Shown: one piece after another, positions 4,121 through 32,697 of the stretch
How positions within the stretch are numbered: the first letter of the stretch is position 1
Layout: each line of letters begins with the position of its first letter
Virus record (IMG/VR): IMGVR_UViG_2718218168_000001
Span: 1 to 64,000 of that record
Length of the DNA: 64,000 nt
Source of the DNA: a virus
Taxonomy: Duplodnaviria > Heunggongvirae > Uroviricota > Caudoviricetes
Reading direction: 5' to 3' (one strand)
Notes under the pieces: generated by a model
Told to the model about the DNA's origin: nothing
Database searches by the model: none
The model's input: the letters and a program-made list of their open reading frames with translations, nothing else
Translations under genes and position numbers: made by a program

Positions 4121-7108
4121 ATGAGCTTAAGCGATCAGGTGGTAATGGCCACCAGCATAGAAACGCTGATCGAGCTGCTAAAGAACCTGCCCGATTATGG
4201 GCGGGTTTCGTATGTGGTGACAGCGAAGGGAGACGAGGTAAAAACAGCGTTTGATATCGTCGATGCCTCAGTTCTTTTGGTATCCAATACTCTGGATGGG
4301 AAAATTAATCCAGACTATCCCCAGGAACTTCAGCCGCGCGACCGGACCCGCGCATCCAGCCTTCTTCAGGTCAACCAGATATCCAAGGATTTGCGTCCTG
4401 CCCAGCTTACCGATTCCGGTTTATCCAGCCATGGCGCGCCAATAATTGGTGAGGACAATGCCGTTGAGTCAGGTAATGGGCGGACCATGGGGATCATTAA
4501 AGCCTATCAGGACGGTAATGCGGATCGGTATCGGGAGTACCTGATTGAACATGCGACCGAATTCGGCATACGGCCTGAAAAGGTTGAATCAATGACGGCT
4601 CCGGTACTGGTGCGCCGCCGGTTAACTAAGGTTGACCGCGTTCAGTTTGCCAAGGACTCAAATATTTCTGATCTTCAGGAAATGGCAGCCAGTGAAAAGG
4701 CTTTTGTTGATGCCGACAGCATAACACCGGCGATGATGGCGCTTTTTAACCCGTCAGAAAGCGGAGATCTGCTTAGCCGCAGTAATGACGCGTTTATTCG
4801 CGGATTTATGACGCAAGTTGGTGCCACACAGGCGGCTGGCCTTGTAACTGAAGATGGGCGACCAACACGGCAACTTGTAGACCGTATACAAAACGCGATC
4901 TTTGCCAAGGCATATAAGAATGCGCGCCTGGTAAGGATGGTTGCAGAAGAACCTGATCCGGACATGCGTAATGTTCTGACGGCGCTTAATGCGGCAGCCA
5001 ATGATTTTGTCCAGATGCAGGCTTTATCAGGAGAAGCGCACAAGCAGGCTGTGACAACTATTGTTGATGGCATTGAGACAGCGGATAGCCTCGATAAAAA
5101 GGCGCTGGCGGCATTGAAAGATGCGGTAGACCTGGTAAGGCAATCGAAGGAGTCAGGCCAGCATATTACCGATGTTATTGCTCAGGGGGATATGTTCAGC
5201 GAAACGGCCCCGGAAGTGAAAGCACTCGCGTTGTTCATCGTCGCGAATAACCGTAGCGCGAAGCGTATGGCCTCCGCCTTTAAGTTGATGGCTCAACGTA
5301 TCAATGATGAGTTACAGCACCAGGGCCAGGCGCTGGGGGATATGTTTGGCGGTGGTGATGTGTCGTTACAGGATATCCTTCGCCAGGTGTCTCAGGAACT
5401 GGAAAACGAAGGCATGCAAGGGATATCCGGCGGTCTTTTCGAGTCCGTTTCCGGCGGTAGTTACAATGGTGTTGCTCCATATACCAGTTTGCTATTACAT
5501 CGGGCATCCGGCATCAAAGACATTATTCATCTGATCAGGCTGCTTTCCCGTACAGATCCCCAGGATGAACAGCTTGTACAAGTGCTTGCGCATTTTGTTC
5601 GAATGCCTGTTGCCGACGTGAAAAAATGGTGCCGATTATTCGGTATCAGCAATTCGTTACTTCGCGGCTTGTTAAATCACGCATCCTCCCTTGGGCGCGA
5701 TGGCTTTGACGAGATAGCGCAGGCGATAAAAAACGGAGATATGCCACCAGCTATTGACTGGTTTTCCATTCGCCCAACCAGGGTGAAAGCATTCCTTAGC
5801 GCGGCGCATTCGGCATCACCATTGGCAGAAATGGTTCAGAAGTTGTCGCTCATATTCACAGACCATACCGCGTTGGGTGATTTGACTCTGGACGAGATGA
5901 AAGAAGCCTCCATTCAGTGGGCCGATCAACAAAATGAGGTTAACTCTGACTTCTTGCCAGCATTCAGGAAGGCCGTTAGTAAAGCTGATGATGCCCGTGG
6001 AATTCTGAGGGCATTTAAGGCATTGCAAAGTCAGGTTAATAAACATGTCGGTGATATCGATGGGGTAACGGCGGAAGGCAGGGATATCCTTAAAGAGCAC
6101 GGCATAACGCCAGAGTTTATTGATGAGATCAGGACTGATATGCAGCGTGAGGTCGTATCGTCCCTGCAAATCGTAGCCAGAGCGTTGGCGGATGCTAATC
6201 CGAAGAGTGCGGCCATTGTTAACCGTGTTATTGGTGATATTGAAGCATCGGAGGGCATGGGGGCGCTGAAACTCTTCCTTTCGCGAGCGTTTAATCCTAA
6301 CGGCAATATTCTCCCCGGCATTATTGGTGAGGCTAAAAAGTATGTCAGCGAAGAAGAACTTGAGCATCTTGACCAACTACTTAAGCGATTCTCATATAAC
6401 CCGCAGACACGCTGGCAAATGAATCAGCAAAGTATGGGTTCGGTCCACGAGAAAGTGTTATCTGCCATGAACAGTGCGATCGCAAACTCATCCGTATCTG
6501 AAGAAAAAGCTCTTGAGTGGGCCGACTCTTTTATCACGGAAGAAGTGGAAGAAGCCCGCGCTGGACAGAATGGTGGGATAGACCTGCGCAAGGAACTTGC
6601 TGATATTTATCGCCTGACCGGCGGTAAAATTTCGACCTTATCAAAGGTGGTTCACCACCAGGGAAGGGCATATGCAAATCTTAATGGTGTTGTTGCTGTC
6701 AATTTGAACGATGAAAATGCAAGTGCACTGTGGCACGAGCTGGGTCATCATCTTGAGTACAGTAACCCTGGTTTGTTAGAGAAAGCCCGGTCATTCCTGA
6801 AGGCCAATGTTGAAGGGGATAAGCCATCTTTCGTTAATATCGGTGGGCGTGGCAAGCCTGAATGGTGCTTCAGATCTCGATTGAGTAATATTTATATGGC
6901 GAAGGTATACCCGCCAGCCTCAGTAAGTAACACCGGGAAAATTCGGCAGAAATCACCGACTATTTCCAAAACGTCAGCAACGGAAGTATTCTCTATGGCT
7001 CTTCAGTTGTATCATGACAAAGAGGCCGCTGCCGCATCACTGATGAATGGTGACGGATTGCTGGAACTGTTATTAGGTGTGGCAAAGGAGCTAAATAATG
7101 CAGATTAA
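4121..7108 (+). CDS. ddrB: DdrB-like large dar operon protein
   Basis: 995 aa ORF directly after ddrA; contains an HExxH-like motif (HELGHH) near the C-terminus; position as in the P1 dar operon. Confidence 0.65.
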   Translation: MSLSDQVVMATSIETLIELLKNLPDYGRVSYVVTAKGDEVKTAFDIVDASVLLVSNTLDGKINPDYPQELQPRDRTRASSLLQVNQISKDLRPAQLTDSGLSSHGAPIIGEDNAVESGNGRTMGIIKAYQDGNADRYREYLIEHATEFGIRPEKVESMTAPVLVRRRLTKVDRVQFAKDSNISDLQEMAASEKAFVDADSITPAMMALFNPSESGDLLSRSNDAFIRGFMTQVGATQAAGLVTEDGRPTRQLVDRIQNAIFAKAYKNARLVRMVAEEPDPDMRNVLTALNAAANDFVQMQALSGEAHKQAVTTIVDGIETADSLDKKALAALKDAVDLVRQSKESGQHITDVIAQGDMFSETAPEVKALALFIVANNRSAKRMASAFKLMAQRINDELQHQGQALGDMFGGGDVSLQDILRQVSQELENEGMQGISGGLFESVSGGSYNGVAPYTSLLLHRASGIKDIIHLIRLLSRTDPQDEQLVQVLAHFVRMPVADVKKWCRLFGISNSLLRGLLNHASSLGRDGFDEIAQAIKNGDMPPAIDWFSIRPTRVKAFLSAAHSASPLAEMVQKLSLIFTDHTALGDLTLDEMKEASIQWADQQNEVNSDFLPAFRKAVSKADDARGILRAFKALQSQVNKHVGDIDGVTAEGRDILKEHGITPEFIDEIRTDMQREVVSSLQIVARALADANPKSAAIVNRVIGDIEASEGMGALKLFLSRAFNPNGNILPGIIGEAKKYVSEEELEHLDQLLKRFSYNPQTRWQMNQQSMGSVHEKVLSAMNSAIANSSVSEEKALEWADSFITEEVEEARAGQNGGIDLRKELADIYRLTGGKISTLSKVVHHQGRAYANLNGVVAVNLNDENASALWHELGHHLEYSNPGLLEKARSFLKANVEGDKPSFVNIGGRGKPEWCFRSRLSNIYMAKVYPPASVSNTGKIRQKSPTISKTSATEVFSMALQLYHDKEAAAASLMNGDGLLELLLGVAKELNNAD

Positions 7109-7409
7109 AATCGCAGCGCCATTAGGCGGAGATGCCATTATCGAATTTGATGATAATGAAGAAGTTTCCGGGCGTTTAAGCATTATCTCCGGTGACATTA
7201 CCGAGGACATGATCGCTGAAGCCATAGCTGGGGCAAATCCCAATAGCTATATGGGATTCGTTAACACCCTTGATGCTCCCGCAAGTGATGTTCTCCGAAC
7301 GCTGCATCTTTACGCTGGCTGGTTTGTTGATTGGCCAGCAGTAGATGGTGGCGATGAGGACGACGACGACGATGATTTTGGTGATCATGTAGACCAGATC
7401 GTATATTGA
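7098..7409 (+). CDS. small acidic protein at the end of the dar operon
   Basis: 103 aa ORF overlapping the ddrB stop; C-terminal poly-Asp/Glu run; followed by an intrinsic terminator. Confidence 0.5.
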   Translation: MQIKIAAPLGGDAIIEFDDNEEVSGRLSIISGDITEDMIAEAIAGANPNSYMGFVNTLDAPASDVLRTLHLYAGWFVDWPAVDGGDEDDDDDDFGDHVDQIVY

Positions 7410-7411
7410 AG

Positions 7412-7440
7412 AAATCCCGCCGATTGGCGGGATTTTTTTA
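7412..7440. terminator. bidirectional rho-independent terminator
   Basis: perfect hairpin aaatcccgccgattggcgggattt followed by a T-run, between convergent ORFs. Confidence 0.8.
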
Positions 7441-8226
7441 ATCGCTTTCCACTTCTTCCGTGGTGTTTTCTTGCAGTTCTGTTAATGCAGCACGACATAG
7501 GTTCCGGGCATTGGCTATAGCCACACTTTTGACTTCATCCGTCATCGTGCAGGTAATGTACTGATCGAGTTCTTCAGCGCGGATGATGCTTTTGCCAATC
7601 AGAAACTGTATTTGCCAGAGCAGATCGGCATCCATAATCAGAATTTCTGCCGGGCCTTCAGGGCCAGCCGGGAAGGAAACATAAGACTGTTTGCCCAGGC
7701 CGATAACTCGACAACTTGCTTCAAGAATTGCGCGCTTGAGGTCTGACTTTGTAACGGAAACAGGTTGGTTTTCACCAGTGATTATGCCGTTGACATGGAA
7801 ATGGAAGGGCATGTAGCTTGAAATACGCTCTACTTTCCACACGCCAGCAAGCGATCCTTCATGCAGCACAATGGGGGTAACCGCGAGTTTCATCTCACCA
7901 TATAACTGCTGGCAGATAGCTGGATTGCTGAATACATCCAAAGGTTCACACTCAAACAGCGGCGCAATCTGCATGAGGTCCATCATGGTCATACCAGGGG
8001 TACGAGCAGTAATGAATCTGCGCATGCCAGTATCCATTGTGCGCCAGATAGCTACACCATGCTTTTTGCTCACTTCTTCAGTAAAGCCAAGGTGGCACAT
8101 GATGGTTTTTTCGATAGCCAGATCAGAGATCGAAACCTTTTCGCCAGGCACACCATCATTATTGATGGTCACTTCGACACTCTGACCATTACGCAGGCGG
8201 TATTGAATTGCTTTAGTATTTTCCAC
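7438..8226 (-). CDS. hypothetical protein (isaB-position ORF)
   Basis: 262 aa ORF with no recognised motif; contiguous with the isaA-like ORF. Confidence 0.5.
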   Translation of the reverse strand: MENTKAIQYRLRNGQSVEVTINNDGVPGEKVSISDLAIEKTIMCHLGFTEEVSKKHGVAIWRTMDTGMRRFITARTPGMTMMDLMQIAPLFECEPLDVFSNPAICQQLYGEMKLAVTPIVLHEGSLAGVWKVERISSYMPFHFHVNGIITGENQPVSVTKSDLKRAILEASCRVIGLGKQSYVSFPAGPEGPAEILIMDADLLWQIQFLIGKSIIRAEELDQYITCTMTDEVKSVAIANARNLCRAALTELQENTTEEVESD

Positions 8227-8232
8227 GTTAAA

Positions 8233-8910
8233 TCACTCCACTACAAACCAGTCACATGCCAGTAAGTCGCCTACAGAAGGAACCCACGGAACAACTACAC
8301 CTTGTGCATTTTTTAAGGCGAAATAAGCACCATACGGAACGAGGTCGCCGGGGAAATATCCCTTAATGGCTTCCATTCGTGCCGGGTACTGTCCTTCAGG
8401 AACCAGCCAGCAGAATTGGTTTTCGCCGTTCCACCCGCGTCGAGCAACTTTCTTGCCATCCTTCAGCCACATCAGCGCGTCAGAAAAGTCGGCTGCTTCA
8501 AGGTCGATTTCTTCTTGTAGAGTAGCGATACCGCCAGCAGAAATAGTTACGTCCCTGGCTGTAATGAATGTCACCCCATTGTGACCTTCAATGCTGAGCG
8601 ATACCCCATTTTCGAAGAAGTCGTTAGTCCGACTAAAGCCTTCTTCAAATGTTTTTTCTGGTGAATAGGACAGAGAACCGTCCTCATAAGCGACCAGATA
8701 TCCGCCAATTTCTGGTCGGTGTTTTTGCAAAAACATTTTATCAACATGGACTTTTACCCCTTCTGGCTCAACGACTTCGATGTTGCAAAGAAGGACCACA
8801 TCCATTAGGGCGATAATTTCGATATCTTTGATTTTTGAGGCGCGAACTGTTTTATGGCTTTTGTATTTTGGAAGTGCCGTAAAAAGCTCTTTCGTTGTCA
8901 TGTTATTCAT
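8233..8910 (-). CDS. IsaA-like protein with C-terminal DUF2829 (Tad2-like) domain
   Basis: start placed at the internal Met (MNNMTTKELF); the six-frame ORF extends to 9078. C-terminal 80 aa (LMWLKDGKKVARRGWNGENQFCWLVPEG...WVPSVGDLLACDWFVVE) resembles the DUF2829 fold as I recall it. Confidence 0.5.
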   Translation of the reverse strand: MNNMTTKELFTALPKYKSHKTVRASKIKDIEIIALMDVVLLCNIEVVEPEGVKVHVDKMFLQKHRPEIGGYLVAYEDGSLSYSPEKTFEEGFSRTNDFFENGVSLSIEGHNGVTFITARDVTISAGGIATLQEEIDLEAADFSDALMWLKDGKKVARRGWNGENQFCWLVPEGQYPARMEAIKGYFPGDLVPYGAYFALKNAQGVVVPWVPSVGDLLACDWFVVE

Positions 8911-9107
8911 AGTCTTTCCTCTGCTTAAAACCTGATGTATTGCGCCTTCAGGTGGGTCAGGAATGTTTTCCCACCAGCGAAAGCAATATCTCGGGGTGTT
9001 CTTTTCGTGAAAAGCGCGTGCCATTGCCAACTTTGGCGTTTGTTTGCGAGTTCGTGCTTTTGTCGGCGTCTGGACCACCGCTTTTCTTTCAGTCGTTTTT
9101 TACACAT

Positions 9108-9596
9108 TCAAAACGGAATATCGTCGTCAAAGTCCATTGGAGGTTCGTTATTGGCGTTGCTCTGAGGTTTACCGCCACCACTGTATTGCTGGTGGTTTTG
9201 AGGTTGGTTTGATTGCCCCCAGCCATTTGAGGACTGTGAATCGTCACGGCGAGCGCCGATCATTTGCATGGTGCCGCCCTGGCTGACGATAATTTCCGTC
9301 GTGTAACGTTCTACACCGGCGTCATCTGTCCACTTACGGGTTTTAAGTTTCCCTTCGATGTAGACCTGAGAACCTTTTCGTAAATACTCACTCGCAATTT
9401 CAGCAAGTTTCCCGAACAAAACGACTTTATGCCATTCTGTTTGCTCTTTCTGTTGGCCCGTTTGCTTGTCGCGCCATGATTCATTCGTTGCGATGCTTAG
9501 TCTTCCGACCGAGCCGCCATTTGGTATATACCTGATCTCCGGGTCTTGCCCCAGGGTACCAATCAGGATGACTTTGTTTACACCGCGTTGTGCCAC
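9108..9596 (-). CDS. ssb: single-stranded DNA-binding protein
   Basis: 162 aa; OB-fold N-terminus, Gly/Gln-rich linker and the acidic tail DFDDDIPF typical of SSB. Confidence 0.92.
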
Positions 9597-9615
9597 TTAT
9601 CTTACCTAATAAAAT

Positions 9616-9632
9616 AAATTAATTAGAGCAAT
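9616..9632 (-). promoter_or_regulatory. C1 operator (ssb/lyz intergenic)
   Basis: aaattaattagagcaat, 16/17 match to the reverse complement of ATTGCTCTAATAAATTT; 20 bp upstream of the ssb start. Confidence 0.7.
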
Positions 9633-9765
9633 AATGTATATCTTTGAAACGTAGCTAACAAGTGATTTTCATTATCCTGTGCCTTCTAAAGGGATCGATT
9701 CAGTCGGTATTGGCTGTGAATGGGTGTTTGTCCTGGAGCGTAAAAAATTCGCTTATGAGGTCTTT

Positions 9766-32379: not shown

Positions 32380-32563
32380 AATGGCAGCCTCCTTTTGCTA
32401 ATTTAAGGAGCTACCGCGTGAGGTCTCAATCTCAATGGCGGTAGCACTGACTGGGTTGAGACTACCGGCGCAAAAGGGAACCGGCCTGCCTTTCGGCAGC
32501 CCAGCCAGCACTACCATTGATCTCTGAGCTAAACGCTACGTATGGCTGTGCGATGGCATGACA

Positions 32564-32697
32564 CAAAAAAAGACGCTTTTGGCGTCTGTGTCGCCTTTTG
32601 CATTATCCGGGGTCTCAATCCCGGCACCCGTTTTAATGAGGTGCCTGATAAGCATAAACCGAAAATGCCACAAGGCGCAAGAGGTCAGGTTCAATGT
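32564..32697 (-). ncRNA. candidate c4-like antisense regulatory RNA
   Basis: promoter-like sequence overlapping the C1 operator; about 130 nt to a minus-strand terminator (AGACGC-CAAAA-GCGUCU + U7 at 32564-32587); hairpin loop AUUGAGAC complementary to a GUCUCAA loop in the icd-like leader. Confidence 0.4.

What the first reader, a model, noticed from the sequence alone, without database searches (positions are those of the whole stretch)
8233..8910. IsaA-position protein ends in a DUF2829 (Tad2-like) domain
The C-terminal 80 residues (LMWLKDGKKVARRGWNGENQFCWLVPEG...WVPSVGDLLACDWFVVE) match my recollection of the DUF2829 fold, which in other phages forms Tad2 sponge proteins that sequester immune signalling nucleotides. 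Here it is fused to a roughly 140-aa N-terminal region and is the first gene of the C1-controlled ssb operon (so expressed early), which would suit an anti-defence role.
Basis: partly seen in the sequence, partly recalled or inferred. Interest (0 to 1): 0.5.

Follow-up and report, generated by a model that had tools for sequence, protein, structure and literature searches.

The report
Tad2 immune-signal sponge in P1-like phage
A P1-like phage carries, just after its ssb gene, a 225-residue protein whose C-terminal third is a genuine Tad2-type domain (a kind of protein that mops up bacterial alarm nucleotides) joined to a small barrel domain related to a capsid decoration protein; the Tad2 part is an ordinary, already catalogued kind, and the attached domain is the less explored part.

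Summary
The minus-strand gene 8910->8233 (225 aa) ends in a Tad2/DUF2829 domain: Pfam PF11195 E=1.7e-22, and the closest solved relative is ModTad2, the His-ADPR sponge (E=6e-20, 46% identical in the Foldseek structural alignment to 9eib). The predicted fold matches solved Tad2 structures, and five of the SPO1 Tad2 ligand-contact residues are kept (W160, N161, W209, S212, D215).

Two details are wrong. The gene lies downstream of ssb, so it is not the first gene of the C1-controlled operon. P1's real IsaA corresponds to the next gene (262 aa), and P1 itself lacks this gene.

Tad2 in P1/D6 phage-plasmids is already catalogued. A 2025 preprint reports it in 56% of P1-like and 93% of D6-like elements. 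I find the gene in 212 of 5,426 complete E. coli genomes. No experiment on it was found.

The N-terminal ~125 residues are a homologue of the phage L Dec decoration protein (OB-fold). They belong to a large family with no Pfam model (about 4,900 clusters). That family recurs fused or adjacent to Tad2, Sequestin, Acb4, Acb2/Tad1 and RyR Tad sponges. In RyR Tad the homologous domain is a dimerising accessory with no anti-Thoeris activity alone.

Most likely this is an early-expressed nucleotide-signal sponge with an oligomerising accessory domain. The ligand is unproven.

The parts
8233..8910 (-). CDS, 225 aa plus TGA stop: Dec-like OB domain, connector and Tad2 domain
   Evidence: ORF list and sequence. 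GAGGA lies 7 nt before ATG 8910. Homologues start at the same place.
8620..8883 (-). N-terminal OB-fold domain, residues ~10-97 (motifs PKYKSHKTVRASKI and GGYLVAYEDGSLSYSPEKTFEEGF)
8503..8619 (-). Connector, residues 98-136 (NGVSLSIEGHNGVTFITARDVTISAGG...), beta-rich and low-confidence in the monomer model
   Evidence: pLDDT below 50 at 98-106 and 111-136. hhalign of residues 4-125 against Dec 1-118 runs into the start of the Dec spike.
8236..8502 (-). Tad2/DUF2829 domain, residues 137-225
   Evidence: PF11195 E=1.7e-22. ModTad2 9eib/8v3e at E about 6e-20 to 7e-21. Foldseek to 9eib E=1.4e-8; target TM-score 0.75-0.76 for 9eib and 0.87-0.88 for apo 8v3e. W160, N161, W209, S212, D215 align with SPO1 W25, N26, W73, S76, D79.
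8317..8400 (-). Hypervariable middle segment of the Tad2 domain, residues 171-198
   Evidence: Mean pairwise identity among 19 P1-like alleles is 43%, against 90% for residues 135-170 and 82% for 199-225.
8911..9107 (-). Leader between ssb and the gene. It holds a 60-aa very basic ORF (9107->8925, ATG immediately following the ssb TGA) and, in another frame, the 56-codon extension annotated in SJ46 and P1.
   Evidence: Nearly identical in P1 and SJ46. Similarity to P1 ends right after ATG 8910.
9108..9596 (-). ssb, first gene of the operon
   Evidence: PF00436 E=1.1e-39. P1 and SJ46 annotation.
9616..9632 (-). C1 repressor operator (P1 Op21/Ossb) upstream of ssb
   Evidence: ATTGCTCTAATTAATTT, one mismatch to the consensus; 15 sites in the window against 0.42 expected. 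Identical to P1 at the operator, with two substitutions in the surrounding upstream region.
7438..8226 (-). Downstream 262-aa gene, the true homologue of P1 IsaA. Its GTG start lies 6 nt after the stop of the Tad2 gene.
   Evidence: No Pfam, NCBIfam or PDB match. phrog_2326, unknown function.

Best explanation
The gene encodes a two-module anti-defence protein of a P1-like phage-plasmid.

Shown here:
- The C-terminal 89 residues are a Tad2-family domain of the ModTad2 clade.
- The N-terminal ~125 residues are a Dec-like OB-fold domain. It belongs to the same family as the N-terminal domain of RyR Tad.
- The gene sits behind ssb, downstream of the conserved C1 operator.

Inferred:
- When C1 repression is lifted (infection or induction), the gene is co-transcribed with ssb.
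- The Tad2 domains assemble into the usual tetramer and sequester a nucleotide alarm signal made by host TIR or cyclase sensors.
- The most likely signal is an ADP-ribose-type one such as His-ADPR of type II Thoeris, held in the conserved W160/N161/W209/S212/D215 pocket.
- A second ligand may bind in a pocket formed by the hypervariable 171-198 segment.
- Sequestration keeps the effector from being activated.
- The OB domain acts as an accessory oligomerisation module, not as the sponge itself.
For: Family membership:
- PF11195 E=1.7e-22.
- phmmer to ModTad2 (9eib/8v3e) E about 6e-20, and to HgmTad2/AcrIIA7, SPO1 Tad2 and SptTad2 at E=4e-10 to 5e-8.
- Foldseek of the AF2 model puts 24 Tad2 chains on top. 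The best is ModTad2 with hisADPR, E=1.4e-8, 46% identity.

Pocket:
- SPO1 Tad2 binds gcADPR through W25, N26, W73 and D79, with S76 coordinating water (10.1101/2023.05.01.538930).
- These align with W160, N161, W209, D215 and S212.
- W160, W209 and D215 are invariant in 39 homologues.

Clade:
- The alignment to ModTad2 has a single one-residue gap, including the beta2-alpha2 insertion region.
- ModTad2 and an enterobacterial homologue (Tatumella) inhibit type II Thoeris by binding His-ADPR (10.1101/2024.01.03.573942).
- ModTad2 also binds cUMP/cCMP in a second pocket (PMC12393519).

Fusions work:
- Acb4-Tad2 and Tad2-Sequestin fusions are functional sponges (PMC12265669).

Expression:
- The C1 operator is present at 9616-9632. 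It and the ssb promoter region annotated in P1 are nearly identical to P1.
- No terminator-like site lies on the minus strand between ssb and the gene.

N-terminal domain:
- hhalign to Dec: 92.6% probability, E=4.4e-7.
- hhalign to RyR Tad gp68: 91.7% probability, E=7.8e-7.
- The N-domain of gp68 alone has no anti-Thoeris activity and forms a domain-swapped dimer (10.64898/2026.06.04.730250).

Selection and spread:
- 228 PLSDB plasmids and 212 of 5,426 E. coli genomes carry the gene.
- Variation is concentrated in the middle segment, as expected for an arms-race locus.
Against: - No binding or infection experiment on this protein or a close homologue was found.
- 19 of 84 tested sponge homologues inhibited none of seven systems (PMC12393519).
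- Residues aligned with the SPO1 adenine and water contacts differ from both SPO1 and ModTad2 (N201, Q203, V207, G214), so ligand identity is a guess.
- Helix alpha1 is part of the tetramer interface, and here it carries a 136-residue N-terminal appendage. Assembly could not be modelled.
- P1 itself lacks the gene, so it is dispensable.
- Whether the hosts of these elements carry type II Thoeris was not examined.
- Early transcription is inferred from the P1 annotation, not measured.
Confidence: 0.68

Rival explanations
1. It is a Tad2-type sponge, but the relevant ligand is not His-ADPR. It could be type I or IV Thoeris cADPR isomers, CBASS cyclic dinucleotides, Pycsar cUMP/cCMP, or a signal from a system not yet described.
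For: The Tad2 family as a whole inhibits CBASS, Pycsar and three Thoeris types, and many members hit more than one (PMC12393519). Residues at the SPO1 adenine-contact positions differ from ModTad2 (T->N201, D->Q203, A->V207, S->G214). The 171-198 segment has at least four allele classes among P1-like elements.
Against: The highest similarity by far is to the ModTad2 clade (46% identical in the Foldseek alignment against 29-38% for SPO1, Hgm and Spt Tad2 chains). All three tested members of that clade inhibit type II Thoeris.
Confidence: 0.3
2. The N-terminal OB domain has its own specific anti-defence activity. Either it binds another immune signal, or it binds capsid protein (a common trigger of signalling systems). 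The protein would then be a two-function inhibitor.
For: Among 69 family members longer than 150 aa, the only Pfam partners are sponge domains: Sequestin 13, Tad2 12, Acb4 4, Acb2/Tad1 hairpin 1. OB-RyR and OB-Acb2/Tad1 fusions also occur in viral contigs. In 15 of 46 non-redundant viral loci a sponge domain is fused or within 3 kb. Polar residues are conserved in at least 90% of the 69 sequences (H, K, D, S, S, E, Y). The same fusion logic led to the discovery of Sequestin (PMC12265669). Dec binds capsids (PMC11398494).
Against: The homologous gp68 N-domain showed no activity against type I Thoeris and acts in dimerisation. Many stand-alone members sit beside portal, capsid or terminase genes. 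No pocket analysis was possible.
Confidence: 0.2
3. The protein is a virion component: a Dec-like decoration protein of the P1-type capsid carrying a Tad2-like distal knob.
For: The N-terminal ~125 residues align with Dec 1-118, including the start of the spike. The layout (OB ~1-97 plus a ~38-residue tail) mirrors Dec (OB 1-98, spike 99-134). Some family members lie next to capsid or portal genes.
Against: The gene is in the C1-controlled early ssb operon, not in a late head operon. About half of P1-like elements, and P1 itself, lack it. A cytoplasmic sponge domain has no obvious use on the outside of a capsid. The spike region is not confidently modelled.
Confidence: 0.06
4. It is an anti-CRISPR of the AcrIIA7 type.
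For: Sequence similarity to AcrIIA7/HgmTad2 (8kbi E=4e-10, 9kzr E=1e-9).
Against: AcrIIA7 homologues have since been shown to be Tad2 sponges, and Cas9 binding was never demonstrated. From general knowledge, E. coli and Salmonella lack type II-A CRISPR-Cas.
Confidence: 0.02

Closest known systems
ModTad2 (Myroides odoratus prophage Tad2; PDB 8V3E apo, 9EIB with His-ADPR)
   Same: Closest solved relative: E=6e-20, 46% identical in the Foldseek alignment, one 1-residue gap in the phmmer alignment, same length of the beta2-alpha2 region. The W/N/W/S/D pocket core is kept.
   Different: ModTad2 is an 89-aa stand-alone protein. Here the domain follows a 136-residue N-terminal module. Four positions aligned with SPO1 adenine or water contacts differ. 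Binding is untested.
SPO1 Tad2 (gp34.65; PDB 8SME/8SMF/8SMG) and HgmTad2/AcrIIA7 (8KBI-8KBM), SptTad2 (8WJD)
   Same: Same Pfam family and fold (Foldseek E=2.9e-7 to 4.1e-5). The gcADPR-contact residues W25, N26, W73, D79 are conserved.
   Different: Only 29-38% identity in the Foldseek alignments. Hgm and Spt Tad2 carry longer insertions. These proteins bind gcADPR (and cyclic dinucleotides in Hgm/Spt), whereas the nearest clade here binds His-ADPR.
RyR Tad (gp68 of Pectobacterium phage vB_PatP_CB1; bioRxiv 10.64898/2026.06.04.730250)
   Same: Same architecture logic: a homologous N-terminal small beta domain (hhalign 91.7%, E=7.8e-7) followed by a sponge domain, encoded in an early replication-gene region that also holds SSB.
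   Different: The sponge domain is RyR-like, not Tad2. The gp68 N-domain is shorter and lacks the central hairpin. gp68 is a dimer, whereas Tad2 proteins are tetramers.
Phage L Dec capsid decoration protein (PDB 6E3C)
   Different: Dec is a late structural protein that trimerises on capsids. This gene is in an early operon and carries a sponge domain. The conserved CHK and YEDGYxSxSP motifs of the sponge-associated family are not kept in Dec.
Multi-domain sponge fusions (Acb4-Tad2, Tad2-Sequestin, Acb4-Sequestin; PMC12265669 and 10.64898/2026.06.04.730250)
   Same: Tad2 joined to another small module in a single polypeptide. Relatives of this protein add a C-terminal Sequestin domain: OB-Tad2-Sequestin in 5 of the 120 closest homologues.
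   Different: Here the partner is not a recognised sponge and has no Pfam model.

Membership tests
Tad2 / DUF2829 (Pfam PF11195) | Sequence match to the family profile above the curated cut-off | tested here: met
   80.2 bits against a cut-off of 25, E=1.7e-22, profile positions 2-73 of 73.
Tad2 / DUF2829 (Pfam PF11195) | Fold: N-terminal helix followed by an antiparallel sheet with short helices, as in solved Tad2 structures | tested here: met
   AF2 model has H142-150 followed by strands, with pLDDT 84-92 over most of the domain and dips to 72 and 60 at residues ~171-190. The top 24 Foldseek PDB hits are all Tad2 chains; target TM-score 0.63-0.88.
Tad2 / DUF2829 (Pfam PF11195) | Conserved ligand-pocket residues (SPO1 W25, N26, W73, S76, D79) | tested here: met
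   W160, N161, W209, S212, D215. W160, W209 and D215 are invariant in 39 homologues.
Tad2 / DUF2829 (Pfam PF11195) | Homotetramer with pockets at protomer interfaces | not testable with these tools
   Only monomer prediction was available. The N-terminal fusion joins at helix alpha1, which lies in the tetramer interface.
Tad2 / DUF2829 (Pfam PF11195) | Binds and sequesters an immune signalling nucleotide; relieves Thoeris, CBASS or Pycsar defence | not testable with these tools
   No experiment on this protein was found in the literature searches.
ModTad2 clade (His-ADPR / type II Thoeris inhibitors) | Closest sequence relationship and shared insertion architecture after beta2 | tested here: met
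   Best PDB hit, with a single 1-residue gap. 46% identical in the Foldseek alignment, against 29-38% for the other solved Tad2 proteins.
ModTad2 clade (His-ADPR / type II Thoeris inhibitors) | His-ADPR contact residues conserved | not tested
   The residue list of the 9EIB complex was not available in the papers held.
Phage L Dec-type decoration protein | Homologous OB-fold domain | tested here: met
Phage L Dec-type decoration protein | C-terminal intertwined trimeric spike | tested here: inconclusive
   Residues 98-125 align with Dec 92-118 at low confidence. The monomer model has pLDDT below 50 there, as might be expected for an intertwined spike but equally for a flexible linker.
Phage L Dec-type decoration protein | Late structural gene; binds mature capsids | tested here: not met
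   The gene lies in the C1-controlled early ssb operon. Capsid binding itself is not testable here.
N-terminal domain of RyR Tad (unnamed family, no Pfam model) | Sequence homology to gp68 residues 1-86 | tested here: met
   hhalign 91.7%, E=7.8e-7, profile 13-99 against gp68 2-71. An OB-RyR relative aligns with gp68 over 97% of its length.
N-terminal domain of RyR Tad (unnamed family, no Pfam model) | Domain-swapped dimerisation | not testable with these tools
   Known only from the gp68 crystal structure.

The most novel reading that the evidence does not exclude
The Dec-like OB domain would be a mobile component of the phage 'sponge toolkit' with a function of its own, not a passive linker. 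It is a family of about 4,900 clusters with no Pfam model. It recurs N-terminal to, or next to, at least five unrelated sponge families (Tad2, Sequestin, Acb4, Acb2/Tad1, RyR Tad). It would either capture a signal not yet assayed, or tether sponges to capsid protein, the trigger of many signalling defences.
Probability: 0.2. Interest if true: 0.75.

Novelty: new variant of a known kind. Interest (0 to 1): 0.42.

Why it matters
P1-like phage-plasmids are common in clinical E. coli, Shigella and Salmonella and are workhorses of genetics. Knowing that about half carry an early-expressed signalling-nucleotide sponge, which classical P1 lacks, helps explain differences in host range and plasmid stability. 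It also gives an E. coli-native Tad2 allele series with a hypervariable pocket-forming segment for studying specificity.

The wider point concerns the N-terminal domain. A June 2026 preprint calls it 'a fold of unknown function'. Here it turns out to be a Dec-type OB fold that accompanies five different sponge families. That makes its role (oligomerisation, extra ligand, or capsid tethering) directly testable with simple truncations.

Tried and rejected
- **281-aa ORF from GTG 9078 (as annotated in SJ46).** Rejected as the likely product. Homologues and PGAP start at ATG 8910, there is a good RBS, and the few substitutions in the leader fit the other frame slightly better. Not fully settled.
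- **P1 IsaA as orthologue.** Rejected. Only the 56-codon leader matches; the rest of P1 IsaA matches the next window gene.
- **Lockin, TadIV-1 or another recently described sponge as the identity of the N-domain.** No sequence or fold match in PDB searches. The descriptions also differ: hexameric curved beta protein, T4 dimer.
- **Structured RNA or terminator in the ssb-gene leader.** None found.
- **NCBIfam and PADLOC-type naming.** NCBIfam gave no hit.
- **N-domain-only word-indexed homologue search.** It returned only fragments. The exhaustive profile search was needed.
- **The search for related loci with the broad alignment.** It failed for lack of a conserved stretch and was redone with a tighter alignment.
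- **His-ADPR contact residues.** The published paper and supplements were not held.
- **dUTPase-Tad2 (P0056) and tail-fibre-OB-Tad2 (P0023) fusions as evidence that 'all partners are trimers'.** Dropped as over-interpretation. P0023 looks like a recombination chimera, and D6 encodes dUTPase and DUF2829 as separate adjacent genes.

Full report
**Setting.** The window is a P1-like phage-plasmid. Region 7000-9700 is 98.6% identical to Salmonella phage SJ46 over its full length. Only about 73-75% of it aligns with P1. The finding lies on the minus strand. Read in the direction of transcription, the order is:
- a C1 operator (ATTGCTCTAATTAATTT, 9616-9632);
- ssb (9596->9108, PF00436 E=1.1e-39);
- a 168-nt leader;
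- the gene in question (ATG 8910 -> TGA 8233, 225 aa);
- six bases later, a 262-aa gene (8226->7438).

The operator is identical to P1, and the surrounding promoter region and ssb are nearly so. In P1 these are annotated as P1ssb/P2ssb and the C1-controlled operator Ossb/Op21. No terminator-like site lies on the minus strand between ssb and the gene, and no Rfam family matches there.

**The observation.** The quoted C-terminal sequence is there. It matches Pfam PF11195, now named 'Tad2-like', at E=1.7e-22 (80 bits, cut-off 25) over residues 141-224 and the whole profile. Against PDB sequences:
- ModTad2 (9EIB, 8V3E) is the best match at E about 6e-20, with a single one-residue gap;
- HgmTad2/AcrIIA7, SPO1 Tad2 and SptTad2 follow at E=4e-10 to 5e-8.

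An AlphaFold2 model built on 39 homologues is confident for residues 1-97 and 140-225. It is not confident for 98-136. Foldseek against the PDB returns 24 Tad2 chains first. The top hit is ModTad2 bound to His-ADPR (E=1.4e-8, 46% identity; target TM-score 0.75-0.76 for 9eib and 0.87-0.88 for apo 8v3e).

**Pocket.** SPO1 Tad2 holds gcADPR mainly through W25, N26, W73 and D79, with S76 among the water-coordinating residues (10.1101/2023.05.01.538930). In the HMMER alignment these correspond to W160, N161, W209, D215 and S212. W160, W209 and D215 are invariant in all 39 aligned homologues, S212 in 38, and N161 is N in 32 and K in 7. The positions aligned with the SPO1 adenine and water contacts (I63, T65, D67, H71, T78) are L199, N201, Q203, V207 and G214. 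Four of these five positions (all but L199) differ from ModTad2, so the ligand cannot be read from sequence.

[quoted passage not shown] ModTad2 also binds cUMP/cCMP in a second pocket at the V-dimer interface, the site where HgmTad2 binds cyclic dinucleotides (PMC12393519). The Tad2 family as a whole covers CBASS, Pycsar and three Thoeris types, yet 19 of 84 tested sponge homologues hit nothing. I therefore rate 'nucleotide-signal sponge' as likely and 'His-ADPR' only as the leading guess.

Among 19 P1-like alleles, mean pairwise identity by segment is:
- residues 135-170: 90%;
- residues 199-225: 82%;
- residues 171-198: 43%, with at least four allele classes.

The variable segment corresponds to the post-beta2 insertion that shapes the second pocket in ModTad2. 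This pattern fits diversifying specificity, but that is an inference.

First, ssb heads the operon, not this gene. Second, P1 IsaA, annotated as 320 aa, shares only its first 56 codons (the leader) with the long form of this ORF. The rest of P1 IsaA matches the next window gene. SJ46 indeed labels that next gene isaA. Similarity between P1 and the window ends immediately after the shared ATG. So the Tad2 gene is a cassette inserted between the leader and isaA in some P1-like elements, and it is absent from P1.

The leader is open in two frames. One is the annotated 56-codon extension. The other is a 60-aa ORF with 18 K/R residues whose ATG immediately follows the ssb TGA. The four substitutions among the window, P1 and SJ46 are too few to decide. 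Homologue starts, PGAP calls and the GAGGA site favour ATG 8910.

**How well known it is.**
- Near-identical proteins are annotated 'DUF2829 domain-containing protein', and one UniRef name reads 'Thoeris anti-defense Tad2 family protein'.
- A 2025 preprint using DefenseFinder reports Tad2 in 56% of P1-like and 93% of D6-like phage-plasmids (10.1101/2025.09.12.675607).
- I find the gene in 228 PLSDB plasmids (192 with at least 80% coverage), almost all ~90-100 kb non-mobilisable replicons of E. coli, Salmonella and Shigella.
- I find it in 212 of 5,426 complete E. coli genomes, with 212 of 219 places on plasmids.
- In D6 a 146-aa DUF2829 protein sits between a dUTPase gene and an isaA-like gene near cre.
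- I found no experiment on any of these proteins.

**The N-terminal half.** It has no Pfam or NCBIfam match and only PHROGs of unknown function. The evidence that it is related to the phage L decoration protein Dec (6E3C) is:
- a profile of 22 N-terminal domains finds Dec in the PDB at E=3.1e-4;
- hhalign of residues 1-138 from 11 P1-like proteins against Dec gives 92.6% probability, E=4.4e-7, with query 4-125 aligned to Dec 1-118.

Dec consists of an OB domain (1-98) and a spike (99-134) that folds only in the trimer (PMC11398494). The layout here is similar: OB ~1-97 followed by a beta-rich 98-136 segment with low monomer confidence. The spike-like part remains inconclusive.

**A large, sponge-associated family.** The exhaustive profile search finds 4,937 representative clusters at E<=1e-3 and 2,518 at E<=1e-10. 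Most are 85-120 aa stand-alone proteins.

Among the 69 listed hits longer than 150 aa, the only Pfam domains found are:
- crAss001_48 (PF21825): 13;
- Tad2-like: 12;
- Phage_gp49_66 (PF13876): 4;
- Acb2/Tad1 hairpin: 1.

PF21825 is the Sequestin sponge and PF13876 is Acb4 (PMC12265669). Architectures seen include OB-Tad2, OB-Tad2-Sequestin, OB-Sequestin, OB-Acb4, OB-Sequestin-Acb4 and tandem OB-OB.

In 46 non-redundant IMG/VR loci:
- six OB genes are fused to Tad2, Sequestin or Acb4;
- three are within 300 nt of such a gene;
- three are within 3 kb;
- Pfam adds two OB-RyR fusions and one OB-Acb2/Tad1 fusion.

That makes 15 of 46.

The neighbours (two genes either side) of the remaining loci include seven portal, two capsid, four terminase-domain and one scaffold match. 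In Pantoea phage PdC23 and Ralstonia phage GP4 the stand-alone gene lies in the head module. The family therefore seems to have both head-module members (like Dec) and sponge-associated members.

**Experimental anchor for the N-domain.** A June 2026 preprint describes RyR Tad, gp68 of Pectobacterium phage vB_PatP_CB1 (10.64898/2026.06.04.730250). It reports:
- that the N fragment (1-86) has no anti-type I Thoeris activity;
- that the C fragment suffices for inhibition;
- that in the crystal the N-domain forms a domain-swapped dimer.

My OB profile matches gp68 residues 2-71 at 91.7% probability, E=7.8e-7, sharing the YxSHK and GYLVVY...SWSP...F motifs. An OB-RyR relative aligns with gp68 over 97% of its length. 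So the best-supported role for the N-terminal module is an accessory oligomerisation domain. Only one defence system was tested for it, which leaves room for the more novel reading.

The same preprint places anti-signalling genes of N4-like phages in a hotspot interspersed with the SSB gene. The ssb -> sponge arrangement here parallels that. No held paper combines 'OB-fold', 'Thoeris' and 'sponge'.

**Verdict.** The Tad2 domain is real, and the protein is most likely an early-expressed sponge of the ModTad2 clade. That part is an expected, already catalogued kind. What is new is the architecture:
- a Dec-type OB module in front of Tad2;
- the recognition that this module is the same one seen in RyR Tad and in fusions with four other sponge families.

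Function, ligand, oligomeric state and transcription timing are all inferred, not shown.

Noticed in passing
window 8925-9107 (-): A 60-aa, very basic ORF (18 K/R, 3 D/E). Its ATG immediately follows the ssb TGA, and it ends 14 nt before the Tad2 gene's ATG. It is unannotated in P1 and SJ46, which instead extend the downstream gene by 56 codons in another frame. Both frames are open in the window, P1 and SJ46.
   Followed up: partly
window 7438-8226 (-); L002 3620-4582; L003 2265-3041: The 262-aa IsaA homologue always follows the Tad2 gene, also in D6, where the order is dUTPase - DUF2829 - isaA-like. It has no Pfam, NCBIfam or PDB match. P1's 320-aa IsaA annotation probably starts 56 codons too early. 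It could be another anti-defence gene of an ssb-linked island, by analogy with N4-like phages.
   Followed up: partly
window 8317-8400 (-), residues 171-198: At least four allele classes of the Tad2 middle segment circulate among P1-like elements, while the flanks stay 82-90% identical. This looks like cassette-type diversification.
   Followed up: partly
P0056, P0023 (homologues); L003 3048-3997: A dUTPase-Tad2 single-ORF fusion (241 aa, 15 member sequences), and a chimera with a tail-fibre N-terminus replacing the start of the OB domain (306 aa). D6 has dUTPase and DUF2829 as adjacent separate genes.
   Followed up: partly
P0130-P0132, P0148, P0220: Giant proteins (1,781-4,559 aa) with 11-28 repeats matching only the GGYxVxY...S..F part of the OB profile. 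Their nature is unknown.
   Followed up: no
phrog_37613; BFVD A0A384WK77: The OB-like domain also occurs inside MazG-like pyrophosphatase proteins of Vibrio phages, which is another nucleotide-related partner.
   Followed up: no
window 32434-32521 (-), 32566-32644 (-), 56756-58622 (-): Rfam finds the C4 antisense RNA, an isrK-like sRNA next to it, and three tRNA genes, as expected for a P1-type genome.
   Followed up: no
whole window: Fifteen C1-operator-like sites (up to 3 mismatches) against 0.42 expected by chance. They include a perfect site at 59288-59304 overlapping a second site on the other strand.
   Followed up: no
L062, L056-L058, L063, L065, L067/L069 (viral contigs): Small anti-signalling clusters in uncultivated phages: an Acb4 gene directly followed by an OB or OB-Tad2 gene, or an OB gene followed 18 nt later by a 58-aa Sequestin gene.
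   Followed up: partly
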